24,823 nucleotides of DNA from Breznakia sp. PF5-3 (GTDB taxonomy: Bacteria; Bacillota_I; Bacilli_A; Erysipelotrichales; Erysipelotrichaceae): assembly GCF_029504745.1 (NCBI RefSeq), contig NZ_JAQFIQ010000034.1:1-24823 (forward strand), in the 5' to 3' direction. The notes under the pieces are model-generated. The model searched no databases and was not told the DNA's origin. It saw nothing but the letters and a program-made list of their open reading frames with translations. Positions 2,537 to 24,823 of this stretch are shown here, in pieces (position 1 is the stretch's first letter; each line of letters begins with the position of its first letter). Made by a program: the position numbers and the translations under genes.

Positions 2537-2542
2537 TTACAC

Positions 2543-6811: not shown

Positions 6812-7815
6812 TTCAAGGTTAATGCAATAGATGATTGCAATAACCTTGAAAATACAATATTGAATTTAGTCAACGTATTTCCTTGCTAGAAGCTGCAGAA
6901 CTTTTAAATGTAAACAGTTCAACAATCTATAGAGAAATTATGCAGCATAGAATTAAACAAGCATACAAGCAAAACCAGTATTACCATAGTAAGGACCACC
7001 AAAGTCGTCTAAATTGTCCGTTTACAGAAAAATTCCCGTATACTTGCAATAATTGTGAAAAGTATCCGAGATGTACAAAAACAAGGTTTAAATATGATGC
7101 TTATAGTGCCAATGAAATAGCTAGGAAGGAATTAAAAAACTCAAGAAGTAAACCTTCTCTATCAAATGCTGATATCAAAAAATTAGATAAAAAGATATCT
7201 CCACGTGTATTACAAGGACAGTCTTTATATCATATACTTCAAAGTGATAAGACGATTTTAAAATCTGAATCCACAATACGTCGTTATATTGATCAAACAC
7301 TTCTTACATGCAGAAACATTGATTTACCTAGAAGCTGCAAATCTGTGAACAGTTGTATTCGAAATCTCATTCAAAAATTACAACAGCTTTATCATAGAAT
7401 TTTCTTTGATTGCATTCTCACAGATAATGGGTCAGAATTCAAAAATTTGCACAATGAAGAACAAGACTTAGAGACTGGAGAACAATTCTTTAAACTTTTC
7501 TTCTGTGATCCTTACTCATCATTTCAAAAAGGAGGATGTGAACGCAATCATGAATTATTTCGATATATCCATAAAAAAAAAGAAAACCTTCGACAATCTA
7601 ACTCAAGAAGATATATCTGAAGCGTTTTCTCATATCAATTCTTAAACAGGAAATCACTAAAGGGACGATCACCATATCAAGCCTTTAGTAAAAAGTTTGG
7701 CATAAAGTCAGAGATTCTTGGTATAAAAAGAATTGATCCAAAAGATGTAAAATTGAAAAAATAAATAACAATTTCGCACCTAAGACACAACTTATTCCAT
7801 TGCAATAAGGTTGAA
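6812..7815 (+). mobile_element. Decayed IS30-family insertion sequence (candidate ends only)
   Basis: It contains the transposase pseudogene. ttcaaggttaatgcaat (6812-6828) and attgcaataaccttgaa (6834-6850) form an inverted pair at the left. attgcaataaggttgaa (7799-7815) recurs at the right, 15/17 identical to 6834-6850. The true IR boundaries are uncertain. Confidence 0.5.
6883..7764 (+). pseudogene. IS30-family transposase pseudogene
   Basis: HTH (LNVNSSTIYREI), a Cys-rich region, IDLPR, LTDNGSEF and DPYSSFQKGGCERNHELFR are IS30-like. The N-terminus is missing (no ATG). The catalytic core between IDLPR and LTDNGSEF is far too short. The frame breaks at the A9 run (7573-7581). The remaining C-terminus is split over two other frames with in-frame stops (KTFDNLTQEDISEAFSHINS*, then SLKGRSPYQAFSKKFGIKSEILGIKRIDPKDVKLKK*). 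Confidence 0.8.
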
Positions 7816-8003: not shown

Positions 8004-8034
8004 AAAATCGCGGAGAGGTTATTTCCGCGATTTT
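8004..8034 (-). terminator. Rho-independent terminator closing the surface-protein operon
   Basis: 11-bp stem aaaatcgcgga (8004-8014) / tccgcgatttt (8024-8034). On the minus strand it is followed by ttttgttgttt. It lies 80 nt after the last CDS. Confidence 0.7.
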
Positions 8035-8113: not shown

Positions 8114-8248
8114 TTATTCCTTATAAAATCGTTCTATTATTTCTTGGTCATCTTTTCGTCTATTCTTATTTGCGACTAAATATAAGTAACATGATATTAC
8201 TGTAAACACCAAAATAATCATCGCAATAATATCATACCAACAAATCAT
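8114..8248 (-). CDS. Small single-pass membrane peptide (44 aa), translationally coupled to the upstream gene
   Basis: MICWYDIIAMIILVFTVISCYLYLVANKNRRKDDQEIIERFYKE. AAGGAGG lies 8 nt upstream of the ATG (8246-8248). The ATG overlaps the TGA of the 359-aa gene as ATGA. The 81-aa track ORF (to 8359) is an unsupported upstream extension. Confidence 0.6.
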   Translation of the reverse strand: MICWYDIIAMIILVFTVISCYLYLVANKNRRKDDQEIIERFYKE

Positions 8249-9324
8249 GCTTGCATCCTCCTTGACTCTTTCAAATGTGTGTTTCGCACTTTTGTATAAC
8301 CTACAGTTGTAGCAATCAACAATGTGCTTATACCTAGTAATATCCAATGCGTATAACAAGTTTGATTTAATACGGAAAGTGATTTCTTAACTTCTGTAAA
8401 CTCGTCTCTATCAAATGAATAAACCTTATAGTTTTCATCATTTTTTAATTTATCAATCTCTTTCAGTCTTGCTATGATTGAATCATAACGATTTTCACCA
8501 GACAGACTACTTTCCTTTTTTAGTGTGAAACTGTACTCTTTTCGTCTAACTGTGTCTAAAATTTTCTCAACTTCTTTCGATCCTATTTCATTTATCACCT
8601 TGTCTACCACTTCTCTATCAAGATTCACTTGATTCCCTTGGTTTCCACTTTCAGGAATATTAGGATAATTAGGACTTATCGAAGCAGACTGTTTTTTCCC
8701 AGCTACAATCTGAATAGTTTCTATTGTCCACCAAATTGTTGATATATCATTCTCGTCATACCCATCATGTGAGAGCATAAGCTCTCCATCAATCATTGAG
8801 GTCATATTAAAATCACCAAAAGTAAAGGCTATATTTGTTCCGCTCGTACTTGTGTCTACGTTACGAATTCGAAACTTAATTTTAGCGACAATACCCCCAC
8901 TCTTGTTTCCAGTACCTGGATCTCTTTTTTCACTAACAAACCGAATTTTCCCTTTCTTTCCATTAGCATTTTGAGACATATTTGACCATCCAGTATTTTT
9001 TAACTCAGCACACATAGAAGAATTCACTTCACTGAAACTACTGTATAACTCCAAACTATTGTAATCATATGTGATACTCTCCATGAAAGATACTGCATCT
9101 GTATTCGCAGGAAGTATTATATTAACTTGTATAATATTCCCATTTTGATAATGCATTACACCATTTTCCTCATACGGTTGCGCACCACCCCCAACATACT
9201 CAATCGTATGATGCAAAGTTCTCGACACTTGATTTGATGTCACTTTATTTTGAGCATTCATGCTACCATTTTCCATCCAAAACAGCAGTCCAACCATAAC
9301 CAATAATAATATATTCTTTTTCAT
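8245..9324 (-). CDS. Secreted, C-terminally membrane-anchored protein with a cohesin-like N-terminal module
   Basis: Signal peptide MKKNILLLVMVGLLFWMENGSMNA. Residues about 35-205 are paralogous to the N-terminal modules of the 1053-aa and 534-aa proteins (NGxIIxVxxxLP...YDxxxLxL...GGxxAKIxFxI...GTxIxFxF). C-terminal TM HWILLGISTLLIATTVGY followed by a basic tail. Confidence 0.75.
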   Translation of the reverse strand: MKKNILLLVMVGLLFWMENGSMNAQNKVTSNQVSRTLHHTIEYVGGGAQPYEENGVMHYQNGNIIQVNIILPANTDAVSFMESITYDYNSLELYSSFSEVNSSMCAELKNTGWSNMSQNANGKKGKIRFVSEKRDPGTGNKSGGIVAKIKFRIRNVDTSTSGTNIAFTFGDFNMTSMIDGELMLSHDGYDENDISTIWWTIETIQIVAGKKQSASISPNYPNIPESGNQGNQVNLDREVVDKVINEIGSKEVEKILDTVRRKEYSFTLKKESSLSGENRYDSIIARLKEIDKLKNDENYKVYSFDRDEFTEVKKSLSVLNQTCYTHWILLGISTLLIATTVGYTKVRNTHLKESRRMQA

Positions 9325-9360
9325 AATAAATAAACAAATCCTTTCTTAATACATAACCCT

Positions 9361-12300
9361 CTATAAATTAACTCCTGCTGGAACCTTGACATAAGGAGGT
9401 TCATCGCTAGGATTCATTAAGTGATAGTTAATTCTCGCTACATCATATGAATCTATAATTCCATTTCCGTTCGCATCTGATAATAGAAGTACTAACTCTG
9501 TTTGTGAATCTTCATTCATTATGTAGTAACTAAATCTAGCTTTATCATATGAATCAACCATTCCATTTTCATTGTAATCAAATAACATAACATCTCTTGT
9601 TTTTTGAACAACACTGATTGTAACTGTTTTTTCAACATAACTACTACCTGTTCCATAACTATATGTAATGTTGTAATCTCCTAAAACACCATTTTTAATA
9701 TTGTTTAAGTTGCCATTAGAAATAGATACAGTTGGAGCCGCAGTCGTTCCATCCGCAAATACTACTTCTGCTTCATTAAACGGAATTAAATCTTCTGCTT
9801 TTGTAATTTTCTTTGCATCATCATTTGTAATTTCACCATCATTTGCTTCTAATGCAACTTTTCCATCTGGTGATATTACAGCTTCATCTGAAACAACTGT
9901 GATTTTTACTGTTTTTTCAACATAACCATCACCTGTTCCATATGTATACATAACATCGTAAGAACCCAATGTTCCTTTTTTGATATCCAACCATTCATTA
10001 TTTGTCACTGTAACATTTGGTGTAGCTGTGCTACCATCAAACATTGTCACTAATGCTTCGTTATAAGTGGATAAATCTGTTTTTGCTGATAATGCTTTTG
10101 CTTGACTTACTGTAATATGTTTGTCTTTTGCATATAAACTTGCTTTTTCATTTTCAGAAACTTCAGACCCATCTTTAATTACTGTTAATTTCACCTTTTT
10201 TAATAAAGTACTTGCAGGTGTAGGATATGAATATGTAACATTATATGTTCCTAAAGCACCATCTAGAACATCTAACCATTCACCTGTAGTAACATTTACA
10301 TTTGGTGTAGGAGTTGTTCCATCTAGCATCATAACAACAGCTTTATTAATTGGAATTAAATCTGCTTTAGCTCTTAATGCTTTTGCATCTTTTTGGAAAA
10401 TAAATCCATCTTTTGCAGATAAGCTTCCGTATTCATCAGTTGCTGCATCATCATCGATAACATTTACTCTAAAAGTTTCAGTAACTTGTTTATCACCTGT
10501 TCCATATGTATATGCAATTTCATATGTTCCAATTGTTCCTAGTTTAATTGATGCAAAATCTAACGTTGTTACACTAGGAGTAGGATTTGTTCCATCCATT
10601 GCTGTTACTTTTACTTTATTAATACCTATTAAGTCTTCCTTAGCTACTAATGCTCTTGCTTGTGTTTGTGTAATTTGAGCATTTTCCCCTTCAATTTGAT
10701 GCGCTTTGTCTTTTGCAATTTCTAAAGTTACAGTTTTGCTAACCGCATCATCACCACTTCCATATGAGAACACTATAGTATAATCACCTATTACACCCTT
10801 TTTAATATTTGTCCAATCCGACACACTAATTTGTGGAGTGTATGTATTTCCATCTGAATCTGTAACAAGTGCATTTGCTAAATCAATCAAATCACTTTGA
10901 CTAACTAAAGCTTTAGCTTCACTTTCAGACAATTCAATATCATCTGCTGATAGACTATATTTTTCATTCTTAGAAACTTCATCGTTATCTCCAATAACGG
11001 TGATTTTAACTTTAAGATCCGTTTCATTCACACCAGAACCATAAGCATAATACACATCATATCCACCTTTATTACCACTTCTGATTTCTGTCCAATTGTT
11101 TGCTGATACTGATGCATCAGGATTCGCAGTTGTACCATCGGCTAAATATACAATTGCTTTATTGTATGGACGAAGCTCATTACGATTAGTTAAATTTTTC
11201 GCAATGGATTCTTTTATAAATCCCGATTCTGCATATACTGCGAATTTTCCATCTGGAGAAATTTCTGATCCATCTGGAACAACCACCACGTTAACAGTTT
11301 TTTCTGCTAACCCTTGGCCACTACCATACTTATAAGTGACAGGATAAGCACCAATTTTTCCTGTTTTCAATGTTGAAAATTGACTACATACAACACTTGG
11401 AACTGCACTTGTCCCATCGCTCTTTGTAACTTTAGCACTATTTAAATTAATCAACTGTGAAGTGCTTGATAATGCTTTAGCTTCACTTTGTGTAATAATT
11501 TTATCTTTTGCATAAACTGCATTATTTCCGTCTGGAGAAATTGTACTTCCATCTTCAATAACATTTAACTTAACTGTTTTAGAATCTGATAAACCTGCAT
11601 CACTATACGAATATGTAACTGTATAAGCTCCTAAAGTTCCCGATTTAATTGCAGCTAAATTTGATGCTGTTGCAGTTAAATTCAAAGGCGTTCCATCTCC
11701 CAATTCAGCAACTACTTTATTAGTTGCTTTTAAATCCATTGCTGTATTTATAAGCTTTGCATCACTTTGTGTAATAAAGCCGTCTTTTGCATTAAAGTTA
11801 ACACTTGGTGACTTTGCCATTACAGTTACGCTTGGTAAGTCACAAGACATTGTATTGATCTTATCATTTATATCATATCCTGGTGTTAACCAGTTGAAAT
11901 CAATATCTACTGCATCATAATTTTTAAAATCAAAAGTTATTGGTGTTCCTGCATCTGTTTCAACACCATTATTTATCTTGAAATATATTTTTGCAATCGC
12001 TCCACCTTCATTAATAGGTACATCTGTTTTATATGTAGATGAACGTAATAATATATATGAATGCGTACTCGAAACTGAATGAATCCCTACCAAGTTAGAC
12101 CAGCTACTTGCTTTGAAGTTCGAATCTAAAGACGCCAAAATATCATCAGAGGTTGAAATTAATTGAACCTTTGTAGGATCATAATGAACTTCTTCTTTTA
12201 AAGAAATTGCATAATTATCTACTGGTAAAGATAATCTAACTTCAAGAATACTTCCATTTCTATAGTATGTTGTCCCTCCTTCATTATAACTTGGAGCAGA

Positions 12301-12480
12301 AACTCCATAGCCAGTTCCATCATTCCAAGTCACTGTATTGTTCATAACAATCGGACCATAAACTGATACGCCATCACCCACAATTGCGCTAACATTCAAT
12401 AACGAAGATGGCAAAATGCATGTAATTGCTAAAGCTATAGCAAAAAACATCTTATTTAATTTGAATATATTTTTTTTCAT
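9361..12480 (-). CDS. Large secreted protein: cohesin-like module, 8 Ig-like (Big_3-like) repeats, C-terminal dockerin-like module
   Basis: I start at ATG 12480 (MKKNIFKLNKMFFAIALAITCILPSSLLNVSA, RBS GAAAGGA). The track start at 12522 adds 14 residues. There is no membrane anchor. See the repeat and dockerin features. Confidence 0.85.
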   Translation of the reverse strand: MKKNIFKLNKMFFAIALAITCILPSSLLNVSAIVGDGVSVYGPIVMNNTVTWNDGTGYGVSAPSYNEGGTTYYRNGSILEVRLSLPVDNYAISLKEEVHYDPTKVQLISTSDDILASLDSNFKASSWSNLVGIHSVSSTHSYILLRSSTYKTDVPINEGGAIAKIYFKINNGVETDAGTPITFDFKNYDAVDIDFNWLTPGYDINDKINTMSCDLPSVTVMAKSPSVNFNAKDGFITQSDAKLINTAMDLKATNKVVAELGDGTPLNLTATASNLAAIKSGTLGAYTVTYSYSDAGLSDSKTVKLNVIEDGSTISPDGNNAVYAKDKIITQSEAKALSSTSQLINLNSAKVTKSDGTSAVPSVVCSQFSTLKTGKIGAYPVTYKYGSGQGLAEKTVNVVVVPDGSEISPDGKFAVYAESGFIKESIAKNLTNRNELRPYNKAIVYLADGTTANPDASVSANNWTEIRSGNKGGYDVYYAYGSGVNETDLKVKITVIGDNDEVSKNEKYSLSADDIELSESEAKALVSQSDLIDLANALVTDSDGNTYTPQISVSDWTNIKKGVIGDYTIVFSYGSGDDAVSKTVTLEIAKDKAHQIEGENAQITQTQARALVAKEDLIGINKVKVTAMDGTNPTPSVTTLDFASIKLGTIGTYEIAYTYGTGDKQVTETFRVNVIDDDAATDEYGSLSAKDGFIFQKDAKALRAKADLIPINKAVVMMLDGTTPTPNVNVTTGEWLDVLDGALGTYNVTYSYPTPASTLLKKVKLTVIKDGSEVSENEKASLYAKDKHITVSQAKALSAKTDLSTYNEALVTMFDGSTATPNVTVTNNEWLDIKKGTLGSYDVMYTYGTGDGYVEKTVKITVVSDEAVISPDGKVALEANDGEITNDDAKKITKAEDLIPFNEAEVVFADGTTAAPTVSISNGNLNNIKNGVLGDYNITYSYGTGSSYVEKTVTISVVQKTRDVMLFDYNENGMVDSYDKARFSYYIMNEDSQTELVLLLSDANGNGIIDSYDVARINYHLMNPSDEPPYVKVPAGVNL
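9412..9579 (-). other. Dockerin-like module (two EF-hand-type Ca-binding loops)
   Basis: DYNENGMVDSYD-KARFSYYIM and DANGNGIIDSYD-VARINYHLM, 34 aa apart. Both loops have D/N at positions 1, 3, 5, 9 and 12, as in type I dockerin duplicated segments. Confidence 0.7.
9595..11799 (-). repeat. Eight tandem protein-level repeats of about 93 aa (Big_3 / bacterial Ig-like)
   Basis: Recurrent pattern AKD-x-I-x-x-S/T-x-AKAL-...-DGT-x-x-x-P-x-V-...-G-x-x-G-x-Y-x-V/I-x-Y-x-Y-G-x-G-...-K-x-V-x-I/V-x-V. The repeats are diverged (roughly 30-40% identity by eye), so they are not DNA-level repeats. Confidence 0.75.
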
Positions 12481-12544
12481 ATTATCCTTTCTAAATCGAC
12501 AAGCAAGAAAAGATGCCTTCACACCTTTTCTTTATTTATCTTTT

Positions 12545-14101
12545 CTATTTACTACTTGATTTAACTTTTTTAACACCAAATCCCATCGCTACCATTGACA
12601 TCAATGCTGTAAACATCCATGCAATAGTATTTGTAGTATCTGCTGTTCCAACACCAGTAGAACCATCTCCCGCTCCAGCAGTAGATGCTGCAGAAATTAC
12701 TGAATCTTTACTTCCATCATTTCCGTTTCCACTGTTATTACCATTGTTCCCACTATTATTTGATCCATTTATTTTTATTAGACCTTTCACAATGTAATTC
12801 TCTTTAGTAGCACTTAATTTATTCCATTCATTTACATCGCTACCATTATATTTTGTAATTACGCGATTACCATCGCTATCATAAGATATAATTGGCATTA
12901 CCAATTCATAATTGACACCAAATGTCTGATCACCAATTAATTTACCATCACTATCTACCTTATATTTTTCCGTATTTCCATTCAAAGCAACACCTTCAAC
13001 CATAAATGTTGATCCATCATTACATGATACCGTTACCTTAAATGCATCATTTACTGCATCTTGTAATTCTTTTTTCATATCATCTTCAGAAGTACCAGCA
13101 TCAAACGTAAACTCTTTTCCTGTTTTATCTACTTTTGTAATTGTATATGTTCTTTCTGTAACTGTTACTGTTGCTGTAGCCGTTGTTGTTTTTCCATAAT
13201 CATCTGTAATTGAATATGTATATGTGTATGTTCCAGCTTCTGGTTGATGTTTCGTGAATACTCCATCTCCTCCAGAAATTGTTACATTTTCTTTACCGAC
13301 TGTATTTCCTTGGCTATCTTTAACTGACGAAATTAAACTACTAGGGTCAAACACATCACCTTCATAAATTGTTTTTGTAGCTGTTTCTAAGCTAATGCTA
13401 GGTGAAGTTTCATTTGCTTTTGGTTTTTTCACAACAATTGAGAATGGGTCACATTCACAGAACATTGATAACTTATCTGCTGGATCAAAACCTAATGTCA
13501 AATAATCAAAATTTGCATCAATAGCATCAAAGTATGGTGATGTAAATGTTATTGTTGTTCCCTCCTCAGTGGCAACTCCTTGGTTAATTTTGAAATAAAT
13601 TTTACACAACTTTCCACCTTCATAATTAGGTGTACAAGTCCTTGATGCTGCTTGGATCCTTATCATACTTGTTGTTGCGTCAATTGGGTACCCATTACAA
13701 AGCATTTCAAAATTATCTTTGTAAAAGCTACTTGGCATCGTTGCTGTAACATCAGTATACGATGATACTAATGTTAGTTTCGTTGAATCATAACGTATCT
13801 CATTCATTGTACTGATTGTACTATGATTATCTGGCAATACAACTGCCACCTCAATAATACTTCCATCTTGAAAATAAGTTACCCCATCTTCTACATAAGA
13901 TGATGGTGATACACCATATCCCGCAGAACCATCTGCCCATGTTACTGAGTGCGTAGCTTTAAAAGGTGGGGCAAGTGTACTCACTTGCTGGTCTGCGTGC
14001 GCTTTGCTACGTGAACCCTCAATAATAAGTCCAGTTCCAACAAGTGCTACAATAAGCATACATATGAAACTAACTCTAAATTTCATTTTCGATTTAATCA
14101 T
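12545..14101 (-). CDS. Secreted, C-terminally anchored protein: cohesin-like module, Ig-like domain, unknown domain, N/G/S-rich linker, TM
   Basis: I start at ATG 14101 (MIKSKMKFRVSFICMLIVALVGTGLIIEGSRSKAHA, RBS AGGAAGGAG). The N-terminal module is paralogous to the two downstream genes. There is one Big_3-like unit (TIYEGDVFDP...GTYTYTYSITDDYGKTTTATATVTV). The tail is NNSGNNGNNSGNGNDGS...TIAWMFTALMSMVAMGFGVKKVKSSSK. Confidence 0.8.
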   Translation of the reverse strand: MIKSKMKFRVSFICMLIVALVGTGLIIEGSRSKAHADQQVSTLAPPFKATHSVTWADGSAGYGVSPSSYVEDGVTYFQDGSIIEVAVVLPDNHSTISTMNEIRYDSTKLTLVSSYTDVTATMPSSFYKDNFEMLCNGYPIDATTSMIRIQAASRTCTPNYEGGKLCKIYFKINQGVATEEGTTITFTSPYFDAIDANFDYLTLGFDPADKLSMFCECDPFSIVVKKPKANETSPSISLETATKTIYEGDVFDPSSLISSVKDSQGNTVGKENVTISGGDGVFTKHQPEAGTYTYTYSITDDYGKTTTATATVTVTERTYTITKVDKTGKEFTFDAGTSEDDMKKELQDAVNDAFKVTVSCNDGSTFMVEGVALNGNTEKYKVDSDGKLIGDQTFGVNYELVMPIISYDSDGNRVITKYNGSDVNEWNKLSATKENYIVKGLIKINGSNNSGNNGNNSGNGNDGSKDSVISAASTAGAGDGSTGVGTADTTNTIAWMFTALMSMVAMGFGVKKVKSSSK

Positions 14102-14156
14102 TTTATTTCTCCTTCCTGTTAAATCTTTACTAAGAACCTTCGTCCTCACAAGTTAT

Positions 14157-14181
14157 GACGAAATGAAAATAAATTACGTTC
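14157..14181 (-). promoter_or_regulatory. ECF-type promoter candidate P2 (GAAC-N17-CGTC) upstream of the surface-protein genes
   Basis: The minus strand reads ataGAACgtaatttattttcatttCGTCata, 56 nt upstream of ATG 14101. It is near-identical in extended sequence to P1. Confidence 0.6.
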
Positions 14182-14275
14182 TATTCAAAATAATCTTTAA
14201 ATAACTCAAATAAAATATGTAATATATTTTTGGCTAACATATTACATATTTTTAACTATATTAATTTAAACCAAA

Positions 14276-15610
14276 TCAATTTGCCTCTACTATATCATTC
14301 ACCTTTATATCAAATGTTGCATAATTTCCAGCATGATCATACAATCGTAATTCGCCATTTGCAAGTATTTGTTCCTGTAATGTTGCAATCATATTTTTAT
14401 CATCAATGCTTTTAAATGAAATTCTTTGATTATTTGAAATAAAATATGATCTAGAAAAATCAACCCCTGCTAAATCATCCATAGCTGTAATTTGTAATAG
14501 CCCATTTCGTTCTTCCATTGAAACTATCTCTGGGAGAGATTTGTCAATATTAGAAATAGCTATATCTTTATGAAAATCTCCGTAAGCAAAATTATATATT
14601 CCATTACCTTTAGCAATAAAGCTTATCGTTTTTTGATCCTCTTTATGTACTTCTATGCTCTCGTTATTAAAGATAATAGAAATCAACTCCTCATTTATAT
14701 CATTATCAAACCTTAAAACAATTTGAAGATTTTTATTAGTCAAATTGTCATCAAAATTTATTTCTTCAAGCTTTGCTTCTTCCAAAATTGCTTCACTTTC
14801 ATTATTTGATGCTTGTAATTCATTAATACCAATATATGCACTTGTTCCACCAATCAGAATACTTGATGAAATAATAGCAACTGTTACAGCTGTTGATACC
14901 CCCTGCACACCTACTGAAGCAATTGTTGTTATCTCTGTAGATTGTGCAATCGTTTTATAAATAAAGTCTTGCTTATCCATACTAAGTGACTCACTTTCTA
15001 CAATTCGTTGAAATAACCGCACTGTTAATGGATTAATCGAAAACATTAAATACCTAGATGGTGTAATTTTTTTATTAGTTAATTCTTTTTGTAAAATCTT
15101 GCGAATTCGATATAATCTACTTTTGATTGTCCCCTCAGGCATATTCATAATTTGGGCAATTTCATCAATATTCAAATCACCAACAAAACGAAGTGTTGCA
15201 ATTCTTTGTGACTCATTTGGCAACTTATTAATTTCTTCTTTAACCTCTAAAAAAAGTTCATTTCGCACCATTTGTTCTTCTGTGCTAGCATCATCATTTG
15301 AATATACATCTTCAAAAAGAACTTCATTTCTTTCAGAATATTTAACATTTCTCCGATATATATCTAGGCTGCAATTATAAGTTATCCTAAAAACCCAGGA
15401 GTTAAATGCTCCTGTTTCTTTTACATTTCCACGGTTTTTTATAATCTTTATAAATGTTTCTTGCACTACTTCCTCAGCGTCTGCACTATTATGCAAAACA
15501 GAGAATGCCATATAATGAATTTTATTTTGATAATTCCTATATATTTCAGGAAAAACCGTATCATCTCCATCTAGAAATTGTCGTATTATCTTTTCCTTTA
15601 ATTTTGACAT
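14276..15610 (-). CDS. ECF-type sigma-70 family factor fused to a TM segment and a C-terminal extracytoplasmic domain
   Basis: Region 2 (EEVVQETFIKIIKN...FNSWVFRITYNCSLDIYRR) and region 4 (LPNESQRIATLRFVGDLNIDEIAQIMNMPEGTIKSRLYRIRKIL). A hydrophobic stretch covers aa about 227-262. The about 150-aa C-terminal domain is paralogous to that of CDS 16251..16898. Confidence 0.85.
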   Translation of the reverse strand: MSKLKEKIIRQFLDGDDTVFPEIYRNYQNKIHYMAFSVLHNSADAEEVVQETFIKIIKNRGNVKETGAFNSWVFRITYNCSLDIYRRNVKYSERNEVLFEDVYSNDDASTEEQMVRNELFLEVKEEINKLPNESQRIATLRFVGDLNIDEIAQIMNMPEGTIKSRLYRIRKILQKELTNKKITPSRYLMFSINPLTVRLFQRIVESESLSMDKQDFIYKTIAQSTEITTIASVGVQGVSTAVTVAIISSSILIGGTSAYIGINELQASNNESEAILEEAKLEEINFDDNLTNKNLQIVLRFDNDINEELISIIFNNESIEVHKEDQKTISFIAKGNGIYNFAYGDFHKDIAISNIDKSLPEIVSMEERNGLLQITAMDDLAGVDFSRSYFISNNQRISFKSIDDKNMIATLQEQILANGELRLYDHAGNYATFDIKVNDIVEAN

Positions 15611-15632
15611 ATTTTGCCCTCTCTATACATAT

Positions 15633-15657
15633 GACGTCAACCAATTTATATACGTTT
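15633..15657 (-). promoter_or_regulatory. ECF-type promoter candidate P3 (AAAC-N17-CGTC) directly upstream of the sigma-fusion gene
   Basis: The minus strand reads tcaAAACgtatataaattggttgaCGTCata, 23 nt upstream of ATG 15610. Confidence 0.5.
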
Positions 15658-15667
15658 TGAATTTATA

Positions 15668-16243
15668 TCATTTACCATTCCCAAAAGAATTAAATGGATA
15701 TAGAATAATAATCCCTCTTGAAATAATATTTTTTGCTTTAATCGCTCCAAAAGAACGTGAATCACTAGAGTAAGGGCGATTATCACCCAATACAAAATAT
15801 TCATCTTCTTTCAAAGAAACAGGACCAAAATCCTTCGTAAAAACTGATGATGTTTTAAGATAGTTCTGTTTATATTGCGCATCTAAAAACGGTTCTTCTA
15901 CTTCTATCCCATCTACATACAGTTTGTCATTCATATAGAAAATCGTTTCTCCAGGTAAACCAACCACTCTTTTCACTAATTCTATATCTTCACCTTTTCT
16001 ATTATTTGTATCTTTTATGATTACAATTTCAAAACGCTTTATATCTTTAATATTAGAAAATAATTTATTACTAACGCCATACTCACCAGCTTTTAATGTA
16101 GGATACATACTATCACCATAAATTTCAACTTGATGAAAAATAAATCTTGTAATTACAAAAATCAAAATCAGAAAAATTATTAGTACTTTTATCATAATGA
16201 TATTCCAGTACTTGATTTTATCTTTATCATCAGTTTCTCTCAT
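15668..16243 (-). CDS. lepB: Type I signal peptidase (S26 family, LepB/SipS-type)
   Basis: N-terminal TM, then GDSMYPTL (catalytic Ser box), VKRVVGLPGE (Lys box) and GDNRPYSSDSR. Confidence 0.9.
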   Translation of the reverse strand: MRETDDKDKIKYWNIIMIKVLIIFLILIFVITRFIFHQVEIYGDSMYPTLKAGEYGVSNKLFSNIKDIKRFEIVIIKDTNNRKGEDIELVKRVVGLPGETIFYMNDKLYVDGIEVEEPFLDAQYKQNYLKTSSVFTKDFGPVSLKEDEYFVLGDNRPYSSDSRSFGAIKAKNIISRGIIILYPFNSFGNGK

Positions 16244-16250
16244 TATAAGT

Positions 16251-16898
16251 TTATTCTATATCCTCTACCCGTATATCATAAGATGCATAGTTACCAGCTT
16301 TATCATATAACATCAAGGTAGCATCCTTCTCTAACGCTTCTTTAATTACAGCAATATCTTGTTTGCTTTTCATGATAGTAATTTTTTCATCATCAACTTT
16401 AATATGTGACTTCTTATAATCAATCCCACTACCTTTATCAGTTACTGTTAATGTCAATAAGCCAGACGAATCCTTATTAATACTTTTCAATACAGGCCCA
16501 TCTTTATCAATATTATCGATTTTTATCGTTTCGCTAAATTTTCCATATGAAATCTTATAATTTCCATTCTTCTGTACTATAAAATGAAGAACATCATCTT
16601 CTTTTTTTACTGCTATTTTCTTTTTGTTAGATGTAACGCTCAGCTTTGACTCATCAGCATCTCCGCTAATCATAATTGCCACCTGCACATCAGTATTAGT
16701 CTTTTCTTTTTTATATACGATATTTTCTATGTATGAGGTTGCAACTACCGAATCCTTACTATTTGACATTTCAAATATTGATATTGTTGCAACTAGTACG
16801 ATAACAACACTTAAAGTAACCAATACTATTTTGAGTCTTTTCTTGGATTTATCACTATTTTGAATAAATGTCATAATTTCCTTAATTTTCTTCATCAT
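16251..16898 (-). CDS. Single-pass membrane protein whose ectodomain is paralogous to the sigma-fusion C-terminal domain (anti-sigma-like or co-sensor candidate)
   Basis: TM LKIVLVTLSVVIVLVATISIF. The ectodomain aligns with the sigma-fusion C-terminus (NGNYKISYGKFSETIKIDNIDKDGP...GLLTLTVTD...LMLYDKAGNYASYDIRVEDI against NGIYNFAYGDFHKDIAISNIDKSLP...GLLQITAMD...LRLYDHAGNYATFDIKVNDI). The start may be the second ATG (16895), judging by AGGAGA spacing. Confidence 0.75.
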   Translation of the reverse strand: MMKKIKEIMTFIQNSDKSKKRLKIVLVTLSVVIVLVATISIFEMSNSKDSVVATSYIENIVYKKEKTNTDVQVAIMISGDADESKLSVTSNKKKIAVKKEDDVLHFIVQKNGNYKISYGKFSETIKIDNIDKDGPVLKSINKDSSGLLTLTVTDKGSGIDYKKSHIKVDDEKITIMKSKQDIAVIKEALEKDATLMLYDKAGNYASYDIRVEDIE

Positions 16899-16904
16899 CT
16901 TCTC

Positions 16905-17348
16905 CTACTTACATTTCATTCCCGCTTCACTTAAATTCTTTTTAGCTGTTTCAAGTTTAATTTTATCTTCATCTGCTGACAAAAATTGAACTAGTAAACC
17001 TGACTCTTTCAATTCTTTAATCGTACTATCGTCAATTGCTATCTTAATTGTTTCTTTTAACTCTTTATCTGAAATTTTATACGAGTAGTCTACTCCTTTA
17101 ATTTTTTTATACTGTTTCCCAACCGTTTTAGCTATTTCTTCTAAATCTTCTTTTGAATATAGTTCCTCATCAACTTCAATTTGATTATCATATGTAATCT
17201 TTTGAACCTCTCCATCTTTTGATTCCATTGTCACCGTAGATTCTGGTGTTGTTATATCTTCAAATGTACATACTGTTTCTTTTGTCTTTGATCCGCATGC
17301 TCCTAATAGTAGCACACATGAAAATAGCATTAATATTCTTTTTCTCAT
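16905..17348 (-). CDS. Lipoprotein (YehR/DUF1307-like)
   Basis: Lipobox LLLGAC|GSK after MRKRILMLFSCV. Size and the KGVDYSYKISDKELKETI pattern resemble DUF1307 lipoproteins (visual call). Confidence 0.7.
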   Translation of the reverse strand: MRKRILMLFSCVLLLGACGSKTKETVCTFEDITTPESTVTMESKDGEVQKITYDNQIEVDEELYSKEDLEEIAKTVGKQYKKIKGVDYSYKISDKELKETIKIAIDDSTIKELKESGLLVQFLSADEDKIKLETAKKNLSEAGMKCK

Positions 17349-17409
17349 TTCTCAGTTTCCTTTCTTCATTTATTCAAGCTACAGATATTTCTGCTCACTT
17401 CATAAATAT

Positions 17410-17434
17410 GACGAAAGAAAAATCAATTGCGTTC
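17410..17434 (-). promoter_or_regulatory. ECF-type promoter candidate P1 (GAAC-N17-CGTC) upstream of the lipoprotein to sigma operon
   Basis: The minus strand reads gtaGAACgcaattgatttttctttCGTCata, 62 nt upstream of ATG 17348 and just downstream of terminator 17465-17500. Confidence 0.6.
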
Positions 17435-17464
17435 TACATCTTTAAAAAAAAATCATTTTTCCAC

Positions 17465-17500
17465 AAAAAAAAGCCAAGAGTATCTTAAATAACTCTTAGC
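17465..17500 (-). terminator. Rho-independent terminator (ends the candidate sRNA/leader)
   Basis: The minus strand reads gctaagagt-tatttaagat-actcttggc (9-bp stem, 1 mismatch) followed by 8 T. Confidence 0.7.
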
Positions 17501-17592
17501 TTTTATATGCAATATGTGGGAGTGAACCTTGATCAATAGTCTAAGCTATAAAGGTTTTTACGAGATCTAAGTCTCAAATGTGAACACTCCCT
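17501..17592 (-). ncRNA. Candidate structured small RNA or cis-leader of unknown class
   Basis: Closing helix GGGAGUG (17591-17585) / CACUCCC (17524-17518) encloses two hairpins, GAGA-CUUAGA-UCUC and AACCUU..AUAG-CUUAGA-CUAU..AAGGUU, with identical hexaloops. An extended -10 (TGaTATACT, 17607-17599) lies about 7 nt upstream of the helix. The terminator follows. Confidence 0.3.
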
Positions 17593-17667
17593 AATTAAAG
17601 TATATCACATTCCCTCACACATTTGCGTAAGTCTTATGTTTTATTAAGATATCTCTTAACTTTATAA

Positions 17668-17696
17668 TACGAAAAAGAATGCCAAATGGCATTCTT
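17668..17696 (-). terminator. Rho-independent terminator of tuf / the str operon
   Basis: Stem aagaatgcc (17675-17683) / ggcattctt (17688-17696) with a 4-nt loop. On the minus strand it is followed by tttttcgtatt. Confidence 0.75.
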
Positions 17697-17720: not shown

Positions 17721-18905
17721 TTATTTAATAATTTCAGTAACGTTTCCAGCTCCAACTGTACGTCCACCTTCACGGATTGAGAACTTAGTTCCTTGTTCAA
17801 TCGCGATTGGTGCAATAAGTTCAACTGTCATTTCTACGTTATCACCAGGCATAACCATCTCAGTTCCTTCTGGTAAAGTAATAACTCCTGTTACATCCGT
17901 AGTTCTGAAGTAGAATTGAGGACGGTAGTTAGAAACGAATGGTGTATGACGTCCACCTTCTTCTTTACTTAAAACATATACTTGTGCTTTAAATTGAGTA
18001 TGTGGTGTTACACTACCAGGTTTACAAAGAATTTGTCCACGTACGATTTCATCACGGTTAACTCCACGAAGCAATGCTCCAATGTTGTCTCCAGCTTCAG
18101 CGTAATCTAACAATTTACGGAACATTTCAATTCCTGTAACAACTGTTTTCTTAGTATCTTTGATACCAACGATTTCAACTTCTTCATTGATGTTTAATTG
18201 TCCACGTTCAACACGTCCTGTAGCAACTGTACCACGTCCTGTAATTGTGAAAACATCTTCTACTGACATCAAGAATGGTTTGTCAGTTTCACGTACTGGA
18301 TCTGGAACGTATTCGTCAACTGCATCCATCAATTCATTGATTTTTTCTACCCAAGCAGCATCTCCTTCAAGAGCTTTAAGAGCAGATCCACGAATTACTG
18401 GAGCGTTATCTCCATCAAAGTTATATTCGCTTAATAATTCACGAACTTCCATTTCAACTAAATCTACTAATTCATCGTCATCAACCATATCACATTTGTT
18501 TAAGAAAACAACGATTTTGTCAACACCTACTTGGTTTGCAAGTAGAATGTGTTCACGTGTTTGAGGCATAGGCCCATCAGTTGCAGCAACTACTAAGATT
18601 GCTCCATCCATTTGTGCAGCCCCAGTAATCATGTTCTTAACGTAGTCAGCATGACCTGGACAGTCAACGTGTGCATAGTGACGTTTTTCTGTTTGGTACT
18701 CAACGTGTGCAGTATTGATTGTAATTCCACGTTCTTTTTCTTCTGGTGCTCCATCAATTTGGTCATAAGCTTGCGCTTCAGCTTGACCTTTGTTAGCTAA
18801 TACATTTGTAATAGCTGCTGTTAATGTTGTTTTACCGTGGTCAACGTGACCAATTGTTCCAATATTAACATGTGTTTTCGATCTATCGAACTTTTGTTTA
18901 GACAT
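17721..18905 (-). CDS. tuf: Elongation factor Tu
   Basis: Unmistakable EF-Tu sequence ([30 protein letters not shown]), 394 aa. Confidence 0.99.
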
Positions 18906-24730: not shown

Positions 24731-24823
24731 ATCGAGTAGGAGGTAACTGATTAATTCAGTTACCGACCTCTCACACCACCGTACGTACGGTTCCGTATAC
24801 GGCGGTTCAGTATATTTTAACGG
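24731..24823 (-). mobile_element. 3' end of a group II intron (domains V and VI, 3' splice site), truncated by the window edge
   Basis: The minus strand shows a DV-like 32-nt hairpin (24806-24775): ACCGCCGUA-UACG-GAAC-CGUA-CG(bulge)-UACGGUGGU, with a conserved G-U wobble and a CGC triad position. DVI follows: GAGAGG-UC-GGUAACUGA-AUUAA-UCAGUUACC-U-CCU-A(bulged, 24737)-CUC. The intron ends ...CUCGAU at 24731, 6 nt after the bulged A, like Ll.LtrB ...CCUCCCUACUUCAC. Confidence 0.65.

What the first reader, a model, noticed from the sequence alone, without database searches (positions are those of the whole stretch)
14276..16898. Membrane-tethered sigma factor, a sigma-less paralog of its sensor domain, and a dedicated signal peptidase in one operon
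The sigma protein is a one-component design (sigma r2/r4, TM, about 150-aa ectodomain). The gene two positions upstream encodes only a TM plus the same ectodomain, roughly one-third identical by eye with shared blocks NG-x-Y-...-YG-x-F-...-I-x-NIDK-..-P, GLL-x-(I/L)T and LYD-x-AGNYA-x-(F/Y)DI-x-V-x-DI. An S26 signal peptidase gene lies between them. In B. subtilis SigV/RsiV, signal peptidase performs the site-1 cleavage that starts regulated proteolysis of the anti-sigma. By analogy, the co-encoded peptidase might release or activate this tethered sigma, or process the paralog, rather than (or in addition to) maturing the adhesins. The paralog could act as a decoy, co-receptor or anti-sigma.
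Basis: partly seen in the sequence, partly recalled or inferred. Interest (0 to 1): 0.8.

Follow-up and report, generated by a model that had tools for sequence, protein, structure and literature searches.

The report
Membrane-tethered sigma factor with partner peptidase
A gut bacterium (Breznakia) encodes a gene-switch protein anchored in its own membrane, inherited together with an active signal peptidase and a switch-less copy of its outer sensor, and this set probably controls neighbouring surface-protein genes by regulated cutting, though the cutting is not yet shown.

Summary
On the minus strand lie a 215-aa TM+ectodomain protein (16898..16251), an S26 signal peptidase I with its catalytic residues intact (16243..15668), and a 444-aa ECF sigma fused to a linker, one TM helix and a ~165-aa ectodomain (15610..14276). 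The two ectodomains are 34% identical (E=5e-31) and model as tandem Ig-like domains.

The unit is larger than reported. A DUF1307 lipoprotein gene leads it. Three copies of an ECF-type promoter (AACG-N16-CGTCATA) precede the lipoprotein gene, the sigma gene and the downstream cohesin-like/dockerin surface-protein operon.

The sigma fusion belongs to a family I did not find described, restricted to Breznakia and Coprobacillaceae, with at least 19 paralogs in B. pachnodae. Most family loci checked have surface-protein genes directly downstream.

Only the window's orthologous subfamily has the peptidase directly upstream (7 loci). Six of those seven peptidases form one clade in an unbootstrapped NJ tree. 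In four orthologs the sigma-type promoter sits between the peptidase and sigma genes. The sigma-less paralog is an old duplicate of this subfamily's own sensor.

This fits the peptidase making the first cut, as SipP does on RsiP, but does not prove it. A secretion role for the adhesins is nearly as likely. I rate it a new variant of a known kind, interest about 0.6.

The parts
17407..17433 (-). P1, an ECF-type promoter (AACGCAATTGATTTTTCTTTCGTCATA) upstream of the DUF1307 gene
   Evidence: One of 3 exact matches to AACG-N16-CGTCATA in the window, with 0.02 expected by chance. It lies after two terminator-like hairpins that follow tuf.
16905..17348 (-). DUF1307 (YehR-like) lipoprotein gene, the first gene of the unit
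   Evidence: PF06998 scores 37.5 bits against a cut-off of 28.3. It has a lipobox, LLLGAC. NCBI names it a YehR/DUF1307 lipoprotein. The same family sits directly upstream of the paralog in L005/L006 and directly upstream of other sigma fusions in L015 and L030.
16251..16898 (-). Sigma-less paralog: a short cytoplasmic tail, TM (residues 24-43, nt 16770-16829) and a tandem Ig-like ectodomain (residues ~55-215)
   Evidence: 34% identical to the sigma ectodomain, E=5e-31. The A1 profile hits it at 2e-59. No Pfam or NCBIfam family matches. It is identical to NCBI hypothetical protein M2475_001699. An ortholog, P0026, is in L005/L006. It is sister to the ectodomains of the S26-linked sigma clade.
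15668..16243 (-). Type I signal peptidase (S26A) with an N-terminal TM and an intact Ser/Lys dyad
   Evidence: PF10502 5.7e-43; TIGR02227 136 bits. The catalytic boxes are conserved in all 7 sigma-linked orthologs. Six of the seven sigma-linked S26 proteins form one clade in the NJ tree; L041 falls outside it.
15630..15656 (-). P3, an ECF-type promoter (AACGTATATAAATTGGTTGACGTCATA) in the 57-nt gap between the S26 and sigma genes
   Evidence: Third match to the motif. A related GGAACCTTTTTT...CGTC motif occupies the same position in orthologs L001, L002, L032 (CGCC there) and L039.
14276..15610 (-). Membrane-tethered ECF sigma. Sigma2 is residues 23-88 (nt 15347-15544) and sigma4 is residues 122-173 (nt 15092-15247). 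A conserved three-helix linker spans residues 180-234 (nt 14909-15073) and the TM spans residues 235-259 (nt 14834-14908). A juxtamembrane spacer covers residues 260-277 and the tandem Ig-like ectodomain covers residues 278-440 (nt 14291-14779).
   Evidence: Pfam and NCBIfam; hydropathy; AF2 models; orthologs and family.
14212..14252 (-). AT-rich 17-nt inverted repeat followed by a T-rich run, between the sigma stop codon and P2. It may be a weak terminator or an operator.
   Evidence: Inverted repeat I1, 94% complementary. Function not tested.
14154..14180 (-). P2, an ECF-type promoter (AACGTAATTTATTTTCATTTCGTCATA) upstream of the surface-protein operon
   Evidence: A related GGAAC(C/T)TTTT motif precedes the homologous 5xx-aa adhesin gene in L001, L002 and L005 (where the -10 reads GAGTC), and the first (1086-aa dockerin) gene of the L007 cluster.
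12545..14149 (-). Surface protein (518-534 aa) with a Sec signal peptide (AHA|DQ), a cohesin-like N-domain, an Ig-like domain and a C-terminal TM anchor
   Evidence: Big_3 8.2e-05. The N-domain is homologous to those of the 1053-aa and 359-aa proteins and to adhesins in L001, L002, L005 and L007. Termini inspected.
9361..12522 (-). Large secreted protein with a signal peptide (VSA|IV), a cohesin-like N-domain, repeated modules of about 85 aa (estimated by eye) and a C-terminal type I dockerin
   Evidence: Dockerin_1 scores 26.6 bits against a cut-off of 22.9, at residues 981-1035.
8245..9324 (-). 359-aa cohesin-like protein with a C-terminal TM anchor
   Evidence: Weak Cohesin hit, E=0.0019, below the cut-off. 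Orthologs in L002, L005 and L007 at 1e-32 to 4e-63.
8114..8248 (-). Small (~44 aa) single-TM protein that ends the adhesin operon
   Evidence: The ORF is. It is homologous by eye to the 49-59-aa genes at the same position in L002, L005 and L007. A GC-rich palindromic terminator follows at 8004-8034.

Best explanation
This is a self-contained transmembrane signalling module that switches on a surface-protein operon.

The 444-aa protein is a one-component ECF sigma. Its sigma2/sigma4 core is tied, through a conserved ~55-aa three-helix linker and one TM helix, to an extracytoplasmic tandem Ig-like sensor. When free to join RNA polymerase it reads GAAC/AAAC-N17-CGTC promoters in front of three targets: its own gene (P3), the lipoprotein-paralog-peptidase genes (P1), and the cohesin-like/dockerin surface-protein operon (P2). 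The architecture, the promoter positions and the gene neighbourhoods are shown. Their use by this sigma is inferred.

I infer that the tether keeps sigma inactive until regulated proteolysis releases it. The first cut would be on the outer face, just past the TM. An S2P-type intramembrane cut would follow, then clearance of the linker remnant.

The co-inherited, catalytically intact signal peptidase I is my best candidate for the first cut. It would act on the signal-anchor-like TM end (TSA|Y in the window), as SipP does on RsiP and as SipS/SipT do on RsiV.

The sigma-less paralog is an old duplicate of this sigma's own TM+sensor. Together with the DUF1307 lipoprotein it is placed in sigma-dependent transcription units. 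It most likely modulates that cut, either as a decoy substrate or as a partner that shields or exposes the site, and so provides feedback.

My own likelihoods:
- Architecture, autoregulation and adhesin regulon: 0.85.
- Release by proteolysis is required: 0.6.
- The S26 is the site-1 enzyme: 0.35-0.4.
- The paralog acts as a decoy or modulator: 0.25.
For: Domain architecture.

Promoters: three copies of AACG-N16-CGTCATA occur exactly upstream of the DUF1307 gene, the sigma gene and the adhesin operon, with 0.02 expected by chance. The related GGAAC(C/T)TTTT...CGTC-type motif sits at the sigma and adhesin positions in orthologs.

Family:
- At least 66 distinct sigma fusions (clustered at 50% identity) carry the same linker-TM-Ig2 tail.
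- About 40 genomic loci were examined.
- Of 20 scanned for downstream ORFs, 16 have a large ORF directly downstream, and the 14 read begin with a signal-peptide-like N-terminus.

S26-sigma linkage:
- The S26 is directly 5' of the sigma in 7 orthologous loci (window, L001, L002, L005, L032, L039, L041).
- Six of the seven sigma-linked S26 proteins form one clade.
- The Ser/Lys dyad is conserved in all 7, whereas the pilus-cluster S26 in L007 has lost both residues.
- The sigma-type promoter lies between the S26 and sigma genes, with terminator-like hairpins after the S26 gene in L002 and L039. The peptidase is therefore made independently of the adhesins in those genomes.
- The adhesin signal peptides are ordinary AxA-type.
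- The TM has the N-in/C-out topology of a signal peptide. In the alignment, position -1 is A in 6, G in 1 and S in 1 of 8 relatives (the 7 S26-linked sigmas plus L007), at the outer end of the hydrophobic core.
- The TM-to-Ig spacer is 17-25 aa in S26-linked sigmas, against 7 aa in the nearest relative without an adjacent S26.

Paralog origin. The DUF1307-paralog pair is conserved in L005/L006, and a DUF1307 gene sits at the equivalent position in L002 and L007.

Precedents:
- SipP is a specialised SPase that cleaves RsiP at a non-canonical VQS site (PMC8844934).
- RsiV is cleaved at site 1 by signal peptidase (PMC4183432).
- The sigma/anti-sigma hybrid IutY is activated by Prc and RseP (PMC8999054).
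Against: - No cleavage evidence of any kind exists.
- No canonical AxA is conserved. The small-residue motif at the TM end (G.G.Y) is family-wide and so is not specific to the S26-linked subfamily.
- None of the other ~30 sigma-fusion loci has an S26 in the fetched DNA.
- The S26 co-occurs with the cohesin-like/dockerin adhesin set as strictly as with the sigma, so synteny cannot separate the two roles.
- In the window itself the S26 lies downstream of sigma-dependent P1. If the S26 were needed to activate sigma, basal expression would have to come from elsewhere.
- The sigma-linked S26 proteins are no more similar to one another (38-54%) than to other Erysipelotrichales SPases (40-47%), and the NJ tree has no support values.
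- No anti-sigma domain was detected in the linker, and its AF2 confidence is only 55-74.
- No S2P gene is in the window.
Confidence: 0.42

Rival explanations
1. The S26 is a cluster-dedicated or auxiliary secretory signal peptidase. Its job would be to remove the signal peptides of the cluster's exported proteins: the three cohesin-like/dockerin proteins and possibly the paralog. This parallels SipW in tapA-sipW-tasA. The tethered sigma would be released by some other protease, or by the housekeeping SPase.
For: - The S26 co-occurs with the same adhesin set in every S26-linked locus whose downstream region was fetched (window, L001, L002, L005).
- In the window it is transcribed from sigma-dependent P1, and so would be co-induced with the adhesins.
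- All the adhesins have cleavable Sec signal peptides.
- Other sigma fusions with the same architecture manage without an adjacent S26.
- Peptidase genes embedded in secreted-protein loci are common, for example SipA in pilus loci (PMC4049620). The tapA-sipW-tasA example rests on established knowledge.
Against: - In L001, L002, L032 and L039 the sigma-type promoter lies downstream of the S26 gene, with terminator-like hairpins after it in L002 and L039. There the peptidase is not co-regulated with its supposed substrates.
- The adhesin signal peptides are canonical (AHA|D, VSA|I, VFA|A and so on) and should not need a special enzyme.
- The S26 keeps its position directly 5' of the sigma gene while the adhesin content and the DUF1307-paralog position vary.
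Confidence: 0.35
2. The sigma works while still tethered, as ToxR and CadC do among membrane-bound transcription factors. Ligand binding or oligomerisation of the Ig-like ectodomain would change the cytoplasmic linker and free sigma2/sigma4 to bind core RNA polymerase at the membrane. No cleavage would occur, and the S26 would be irrelevant to signalling.
For: - The ~55-aa conserved linker is long enough to let the sigma domains reach RNA polymerase.
- Many family members have very hydrophobic TM helices without helix breakers, and TM-to-Ig spacers as short as 3-7 aa. That leaves little room for a site-1 cut.
- No protease gene is linked to most family members.
Against: - Known membrane-spanning sigma hybrids are thought to need proteolytic release: IutY, and the ECF52 protein SCO4117 (PMC8999054).
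- The window's TM is weakly hydrophobic and rich in Gly/Ser/Thr (hydropathy 1.77). From established knowledge of S2P enzymes, that composition is typical of intramembrane-protease substrates.
- The conserved link with an active peptidase in this subfamily would go unexplained.
Confidence: 0.15
3. The S26-sigma adjacency is historical accident. The S26 would be the ordinary housekeeping signal peptidase of these bacteria that happens to sit next to this cluster.
For: It is a typical-length Gram-positive SPase I, 40-47% identical to SPases of other Erysipelotrichales. In L001 and L002 it has its own transcription signals.
Against: - The flanking housekeeping genes differ between genomes: tuf in the window, Antibiotic_NAT/PgpA in L001 and L002, and a dockerin protein in L005. 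The S26-sigma pair stays together throughout.
- Six of the seven sigma-linked S26 proteins cluster apart from the other Erysipelotrichales SPases.
Confidence: 0.08

Closest known systems
SigP-RsiP-SipP of Bacillus thuringiensis and SigV-RsiV of B. subtilis / C. difficile (signal peptidase as site-1 protease in ECF activation)
   Same: - A single-pass, N-in/C-out membrane protein holds an ECF sigma.
- A type I signal peptidase cuts just outside the TM, and an S2P (RasP) then cuts within it.
- For RsiP, a specialised SPase paralog (SipP) and a non-canonical site (VQS) are used, and an accessory extracytoplasmic sensor (PbpP) gates the cut (PMC8844934; PMC4183432).
- Here an active SPase paralog is co-inherited with the sigma, and accessory extracytoplasmic proteins (the paralog and the DUF1307 lipoprotein) are present.
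   Different: - Here the sigma and its tether are one polypeptide, not a sigma plus a separate anti-sigma.
- There is no DUF4179 or RsiV-type domain and no PBP.
- The sensor is a tandem Ig-like module.
- The peptidase gene is adjacent to the sigma gene.
- Cleavage has not been demonstrated.
IutY of Pseudomonas putida (ECF243 sigma/anti-sigma hybrid), and the actinobacterial ECF52/ECF53/ECF48 sigmas with TM-containing C-terminal extensions (e.g. SCO4117)
   Same: One polypeptide carries an N-terminal ECF sigma, a TM segment and an extracytoplasmic C-terminal domain. Activation is thought or shown to need proteolytic release; for IutY this is by Prc and RseP (PMC8999054; PMC5411451).
   Different: - The lineage differs (Erysipelotrichales, Bacillota).
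- There is no FecR-like or zinc-finger anti-sigma domain.
- The ectodomain is tandem Ig-like, not a FecR periplasmic or carbohydrate-binding domain.
- No TonB-dependent receptor partner is present.
- A linked S26 peptidase and a sigma-less sensor paralog are present.
- The family is massively expanded, with at least 19 copies in one genome.
SigI-RsgI systems of Clostridium thermocellum / B. subtilis
   Same: Many paralogous transmembrane sigma-control devices occur in one genome. Each has its own extracytoplasmic sensor and each controls genes for cohesin/dockerin-type surface assemblies, with RIP-based release. This comparison rests on established knowledge; the SEAL-domain paper PMC10556640 was listed.
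   Different: - SigI is not an ECF sigma, and RsgI is a separate protein.
- Site 1 in RsgI is autoproteolysis of a SEAL domain, not a signal-peptidase cut.
- No RsgI or SEAL signature is found here. An 'NP' dipeptide seen in some orthologs' juxtamembrane spacers is absent from the window protein.
Dedicated signal peptidases in secreted-protein loci: SipW (tapA-sipW-tasA, B. subtilis) and SipA/LepA (S. pyogenes FCT pilus loci)
   Same: An S26-family gene is embedded in an operon for surface or matrix proteins. TapA, like the paralog here, is a small membrane-associated accessory protein encoded directly next to the peptidase gene.
   Different: - SipW is the ER/archaeal type. The window enzyme is the bacterial type: TIGR02227 scores 136 bits, whereas TIGR02228 scores only 18.8 bits against a cut-off of 51.85.
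- SipA lacks the catalytic residues (PMC4049620). So does the pilus-cluster S26 of L007, whereas the sigma-linked enzymes keep them.
- There are no sortase or pilin genes in the window.

Membership tests
ECF (group 4) sigma-70 factors | Sigma2 and sigma4 domains present, no sigma3 or sigma1.1, and a score above the family threshold | tested here: met
   PF04542 50 bits and PF08281 44.7 bits. TIGR02937 96.3 bits against a cut-off of 42.9. No equivalog-level model is reached: the best is SigW at 116.5 bits against a cut-off of 209.
ECF sigma with a fused membrane-spanning C-terminal extension (IutY / ECF52-53 kind) | A single polypeptide with sigma, then TM, then an extracytoplasmic domain | tested here: met
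   Hydropathy peak at residues 235-253; AF2 helix 241-259 and a confident C-terminal beta domain. The architecture is conserved in at least 66 representative proteins.
ECF sigma with a fused membrane-spanning C-terminal extension (IutY / ECF52-53 kind) | A recognisable anti-sigma domain (FecR-like, or ZAS/zinc finger) between sigma4 and the TM | tested here: not met
   No Pfam hit in residues 180-444, either at E<0.01 for the window protein or at E<1 for 23 family members. No PDB sequence hit. The linker is conserved (KG-x-[TS]P-xx-Y-x-S....P) but unclassified.
ECF sigma with a fused membrane-spanning C-terminal extension (IutY / ECF52-53 kind) | Activation by proteolytic release of the sigma domain | not testable with these tools
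   This needs western blots and reporters in protease mutants.
SPase-dependent RIP of an ECF regulator (RsiV / RsiP kind) | A signal-peptidase cleavage site (-3/-1 small residues) just outside an N-in/C-out TM | tested here: inconclusive
   The topology fits. In the alignment, position -1 is A in 6, G in 1 and S in 1 of 8 relatives (TSA|Y, LTA|F, LAA|F, GGA|Y, LGA|F). There is no strict AxA, and similar small-residue TM ends occur in family members without an S26.
SPase-dependent RIP of an ECF regulator (RsiV / RsiP kind) | A separate anti-sigma protein with an RsiV-type (DUF4179) domain or an RsiP-type ectodomain | tested here: not met
   The regulator is fused to the sigma, and no DUF4179 or RsiV domain is found.
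SPase-dependent RIP of an ECF regulator (RsiV / RsiP kind) | Dependence on an S2P (RasP/RseP) for the second cut | not testable with these tools
   No S2P gene is in the 24.8-kb window, and the genome could not be scanned.
Bacterial type I signal peptidase (S26A, active) | A Ser/Lys catalytic dyad in conserved boxes B and D, an N-terminal TM, and a score above threshold | tested here: met
   GDSMYPT, VKRVVGLPGE and GDNRPYSSDSR are present. TIGR02227 136.4 bits against a cut-off of 47.
SipA/LepA-type pilus-assembly pseudo-peptidase | An S26 fold that lacks the catalytic Ser and Lys, encoded among sortase and pilin genes | tested here: not met
   The window S26 keeps both residues and has no pilin or sortase neighbours. 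By contrast, the L007 pilus-cluster S26 reads ADMDP / VSRVV.
SipW-type (ER/archaeal) dedicated signal peptidase | The S26B/archaeal-type signature | tested here: not met
   TIGR02228 scores 18.8 bits against a cut-off of 51.85.
SigI-RsgI | A SigI-type sigma and an RsgI N-terminal anti-sigma domain with an autoproteolytic SEAL juxtamembrane domain | tested here: not met
   No such Pfam or NCBIfam hits. The juxtamembrane spacer is short and unstructured in the AF2 model.
DUF1307 / YehR lipoproteins | PF06998 above threshold, plus a lipobox | tested here: met
   37.5 bits against a cut-off of 28.3; lipobox LLLGAC.

The most novel reading that the evidence does not exclude
The sigma-linked S26 would be a dedicated site-1 protease that has co-evolved with a membrane-tethered ECF sigma, making it the first signal peptidase genetically hard-wired to a sigma factor. 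The sigma-induced, sigma-less copy of the TM+sensor, working with the DUF1307 lipoprotein, would act as a decoy substrate or shield that sets the threshold and gives negative feedback. More broadly, Breznakia and Coprobacillaceae would run 10-20 parallel one-component sigma switches of this design, each controlling its own adhesin set.
Probability: 0.3. Interest if true: 0.8.

Novelty: new variant of a known kind. Interest (0 to 1): 0.6.

Why it matters
How membrane-spanning 'one-component' ECF sigma factors are switched on is largely unknown outside IutY. Which protease makes the first cut is also the least understood step of most regulated-intramembrane-proteolysis pathways.

Here the candidate components are encoded side by side and conserved across species: the tethered sigma, an active signal peptidase, a natural sigma-less version of the sensor, and a lipoprotein. 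Three clear target promoters are available as read-outs. The whole pathway could therefore be rebuilt and tested in a model host with a few constructs.

The work also uncovers a large, so far unannotated family of sigma-TM-tandem-Ig regulators. There are at least 19 in one Breznakia genome, and in most loci checked the gene sits directly upstream of surface-protein genes. This suggests how these insect-gut Erysipelotrichales choose which surface proteins, including cohesin-like/dockerin assemblies, to display.

Tried and rejected
- Homophilic sensing. I asked whether the sigma ectodomain is a copy of a module in the neighbouring adhesins. An hmmsearch of the ectodomain profile against all ORFs of the window and of L001-L010 hit only sigma fusions and paralogs. 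The module does occur as up to 31 tandem repeats in giant surface proteins elsewhere.
- Fold-based function. Foldseek against the PDB gave only generic tandem-Ig matches (Met, KIT, intimin, SiiE; TM 0.3-0.5), with no ligand clue.
- Anti-sigma domain in the linker. There was no Pfam, NCBIfam or PDB sequence match.
- RsgI-like autoproteolysis. An 'NP' dipeptide in the juxtamembrane spacer of L001, L002, L032 and L007 is absent from the window and from L005, so I dropped this idea.
- The exact window promoter motif in other loci gave no matches. A diverged motif (GGAACCTTTTTT..CGTC) was then found by eye and by regex.
I replaced it with a degenerate DNA pattern scan of genome contigs.
The presence of the paralog in L001, L002, L007 and L032 therefore remains unverified. 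Only the start of a DUF1307-like lipoprotein gene is visible in L002 and L007.
- Spacer length as a marker of S26 dependence. The family-wide range is 3-43 aa, so the trait is not diagnostic.
- The word-seeded protein search with the paralog found only the paralog itself. The profile search was needed to find its relatives.

Full report
**What is there**

All genes of interest lie on the minus strand. Downstream of tuf (18905..17721) and its terminator (17696..17675) the order is:
- a DUF1307/YehR-type lipoprotein gene (17348..16905);
- a 215-aa protein with no known family (16898..16251);
- an S26 signal peptidase I (16243..15668);
- a 444-aa ECF sigma with a long C-terminal extension (15610..14276);
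- three surface-protein genes (14149..12545, 12522..9361, 9324..8245);
- a ~44-aa single-TM gene (8248..8114);
- a strong terminator (8034..8004).

The paralog, sigma, peptidase, lipoprotein and two adhesin sequences match Breznakia sp. PF5-3 proteins exactly, on a 24,824-nt contig. Their annotations are generic.

**Checking the observation**

The sigma protein has Sigma70_r2 (residues 23-88) and r4 (122-173), and passes the ECF superfamily model TIGR02937. It has one hydrophobic segment at about 235-259.

AF2 gives confident sigma2 and sigma4. It gives three short linker helices at 184-225 (pLDDT 55-74), a TM helix at 241-259, and a C-terminal pair of beta-sandwich domains (pLDDT 91-97).

The 215-aa protein has a positively charged N-terminus, one TM and the same module. 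BLASTP gives 34% identity over 184 aa with E=5e-31.

The peptidase is a bacterial-type SPase I with an intact Ser/Lys dyad.

Topology follows from function. The sigma domains must be cytoplasmic, so a single TM places the C-terminal module outside. The paralog's positive N-terminus predicts the same orientation.

**The unit is bigger than reported**

The motif AACG-N16-CGTCATA occurs three times in the window, with 0.02 expected by chance. All three copies are on the coding strand and in intergenic DNA:
- before the DUF1307 gene (P1, 17433..17407);
- in the 57-nt gap between the peptidase and sigma genes (P3, 15656..15630);
- before the first surface-protein gene (P2, 14180..14154).

GAAC/AAAC-N17-CGTC is the classic ECF promoter shape; this rests on established knowledge. 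The simplest reading is autoregulation plus control of the adhesin operon.

The gaps between genes from the lipoprotein gene to the peptidase gene are only 6-7 nt. In this genome the peptidase and the paralog are therefore probably co-transcribed from P1.

**The family**

The word-seeded search found only seven proteins with the same ectodomain, and the paralog found only itself.

A profile of the ectodomain, searched against 1.8 billion representatives, found 794 proteins. They fall into three groups:
- At least 66 distinct sigma fusions of 410-470 aa with the same sigma-linker-TM-Ig2 layout.
- Giant surface proteins that carry the module as up to 31 tandem repeats. Pfam labels those repeats BiPBP_C, DUF7743 or CHB_HEX_C, all Ig-like.
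- Only three genuine sigma-less TM+module proteins: the window paralog, its ortholog P0026, and P0117.

A degenerate DNA pattern scan of one genome per species found the fusions almost only in Breznakia and Coprobacillaceae:
- at least 19 loci in B. pachnodae DSM 16784;
- at least 11 in one Coprobacillaceae MAG;
- further loci in B. blatticola and Erysipelotrichaceae MTC7.

Of the 20 family loci scanned for downstream ORFs, 16 have a large ORF directly downstream, often overlapping the sigma gene. The 14 such ORFs I read all begin with a signal-peptide-like N-terminus. Seven end in a C-terminal TM anchor and several have leucine-rich-repeat-like sequence. The called genes of L004 and L012 add Flg_new, SdrD-type, LRR and Ig-like Pfam hits.

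Foldseek gives only generic tandem-Ig matches. No Pfam or PDB sequence family covers the linker or the ectodomain.

I found no description of this family in the ECF classification papers I read or by phrase searches.

**Where the peptidase fits**

About 40 sigma-fusion loci were examined. An S26 gene lies immediately upstream only in the subfamily orthologous to the window sigma. These are the window, L001, L002/L003/L060, L005/L053, L032 (B. pachnodae), L039 and L041 (MTC7), and their sigma N-domains score 2e-35 to 9e-56 against the window's.

- All seven peptidases keep the catalytic Ser and Lys.
- Six of them, plus one metagenomic protein, form a single clade among about 100 Erysipelotrichales SPases in an NJ tree. 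The tree has no support values, and L041 falls outside the clade.
- The nearest sigma relative without an adjacent S26 is L007. It has only a divergent S26 inside an FctA-type pilus cluster 3 kb upstream. That protein has lost both catalytic residues, so it is SipA-like (PMC4049620).

In L001, L002, L032 and L039 a conserved GGAACCTTTTTT...CGTC motif lies between the peptidase and sigma genes. (In L032 the -10 element reads CGCC.) The same kind of motif precedes the homologous 5xx-aa adhesin gene. L002 and L039 also have terminator-like hairpins after the peptidase gene. In those genomes the peptidase is therefore outside the sigma-dependent units and is probably made constitutively.

That is what a pre-existing activating protease would need. 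In the SigP system, SipP does not need to be induced (PMC8844934). It is not what one expects of an enzyme dedicated to co-induced substrates.

The adhesins have ordinary AxA-type signal peptides.

The sigma's TM has signal-peptide orientation. At the outer end of its hydrophobic core, the aligned -1 position is A in 6 of the 8 sequences compared (the seven S26-linked sigmas plus L007) and G or S in the other two: TSA|Y in the window, then LTA|F, LAA|F, GGA|Y and LGA|F. The motif is not a strict AxA, and similar small-residue TM ends occur across the whole family.

The TM-to-Ig spacer is 17-25 aa in S26-linked sigmas and 7 aa in L007, but ranges from 3 to 43 aa in the family, so it is not diagnostic.

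**The paralog and the lipoprotein**

In an ectodomain tree the two paralogs (window and L005) are sisters of the ectodomains of the S26-linked sigma clade. The paralog is therefore an old duplicate of this subfamily's own sensor that lost the sigma part.

It is always preceded by a DUF1307 lipoprotein gene (window, L005, L006).

In L005 the pair lies at the 3' end of the adhesin operon rather than upstream of the peptidase. In L007 a DUF1307-family gene occupies that 3' position. In L002 a lipoprotein gene whose visible N-terminus resembles the window's DUF1307 protein occupies the same position. In both loci the fetched sequence ends there.

DUF1307 genes also sit directly upstream of two unrelated sigma fusions, L015 and L030. 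This suggests that the lipoprotein partners with the Ig2 module in general.

In both arrangements the pair falls in a sigma-dependent transcription unit, as anti-sigma genes usually do.

**Mechanism**

Shown:
- the architecture;
- the promoter repeats and their positions;
- the conserved neighbourhoods;
- the intact active site of the peptidase;
- the origin of the paralog.

Inferred:
- The tether is inhibitory and the sigma is released by regulated proteolysis. This is by analogy with IutY and ECF52 (PMC8999054) and fits the weakly hydrophobic, Gly/Ser/Thr-rich TM.
- The S26 makes the first cut, by analogy with RsiV and RsiP/SipP.
- The paralog and the lipoprotein modulate that cut.

I put the S26-as-site-1 step at 0.35-0.4. 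The main rival is that the S26 is a cluster-dedicated secretory peptidase. That rival is almost as likely, because the S26 co-occurs with the cohesin-like/dockerin adhesin set as strictly as with the sigma. In this window it is also downstream of P1.

A cleavage-free, ToxR-like mode cannot be excluded. A purely housekeeping S26 is unlikely, because the flanking genes differ between genomes while the pair stays together.

**Verdict**

This is a new variant of a known kind: ECF sigmas with membrane-spanning extensions, and signal-peptidase-initiated RIP. The new features are:
- a tandem-Ig sensor;
- a large lineage-specific expansion next to adhesin genes;
- one subfamily with a co-inherited active signal peptidase, a sigma-less sensor paralog and a lipoprotein.

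Interest is about 0.6. It would rise to about 0.8 if the peptidase is shown to be the dedicated site-1 enzyme.

Noticed in passing
window 17455-17665 (- strand): About 210 nt lie between the tuf terminator and P1. They fold far better than shuffled controls (-55.9 kcal/mol, z = -5.0) and end in a strong intrinsic terminator (GCTAAGAG...CTCTTGGC followed by T8). No Rfam family matches, even at E<1, and no convincing ORF is present. This may be a small RNA or a leader.
   Followed up: partly
window 8245-14149 (- strand): The three surface proteins share a weakly cohesin-like N-terminal domain. Two of them (534 and 359 aa) end in a TM anchor. The 1053-aa protein ends in a type I dockerin that scores above the Pfam threshold. 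This looks like a small non-cellulosomal cohesin-dockerin surface assembly in an Erysipelotrichaceae. The same trio recurs in L002, L005 and L007.
   Followed up: partly
L014-L064 (B. pachnodae DSM 16784 contigs) and the Coprobacillaceae MAG VLC_075 loci: The sigma-TM-Ig2 fusion is greatly expanded, with at least 19 loci in one genome including a tandem pair in L051. In seven of the scanned loci a C-terminally TM-anchored surface protein of about 235-425 aa (Flg_new-like repeat sequence by eye) follows directly, usually with a larger ORF after it. In most of the other loci the first downstream gene is a large LRR-like or BspA-like surface protein.
   Followed up: partly
L024 6578-7902 and L044 4438-5814: Two sigma-fusion paralogs are interrupted between the TM and the ectodomain. 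L024 has a 1-nt deletion in a short A-run, and L044 has in-frame stops. If these are real rather than assembly errors, they would give a sigma-TM protein with no ectodomain, which would mimic a site-1-cleaved product.
   Followed up: partly
L007 559-6614: Directly upstream of the closest S26-less sigma relative lies an FctA/DUF7601 pilin-type cluster. It contains an S26 homolog that has lost its catalytic Ser and Lys, so it is SipA-like.
   Followed up: partly
window 6883-7620 (+ strand): There is a 245-aa ORF with an HTH and a C-terminal match to IS30-family transposases (partial, below the cut-off). It lies just beyond the end of the adhesin operon. It may relate to the rearrangement that put the DUF1307-paralog pair upstream of the peptidase in this genome.
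   Followed up: no
window 2440-2538 (- strand): A TPP riboswitch (RF00059, 71 bits) lies upstream of the 172-aa ORF at 1886-2404.
   Followed up: no
window 24731-24807 (- strand): A match to the Rfam group II catalytic intron model (RF00029, 48 bits, above the gathering score) lies at the very edge of the window.
   Followed up: no
window 14212-14252: A 17-nt AT-rich inverted repeat (94% complementary) sits between the sigma stop codon and P2. It may be a weak terminator or an operator site.
   Followed up: no
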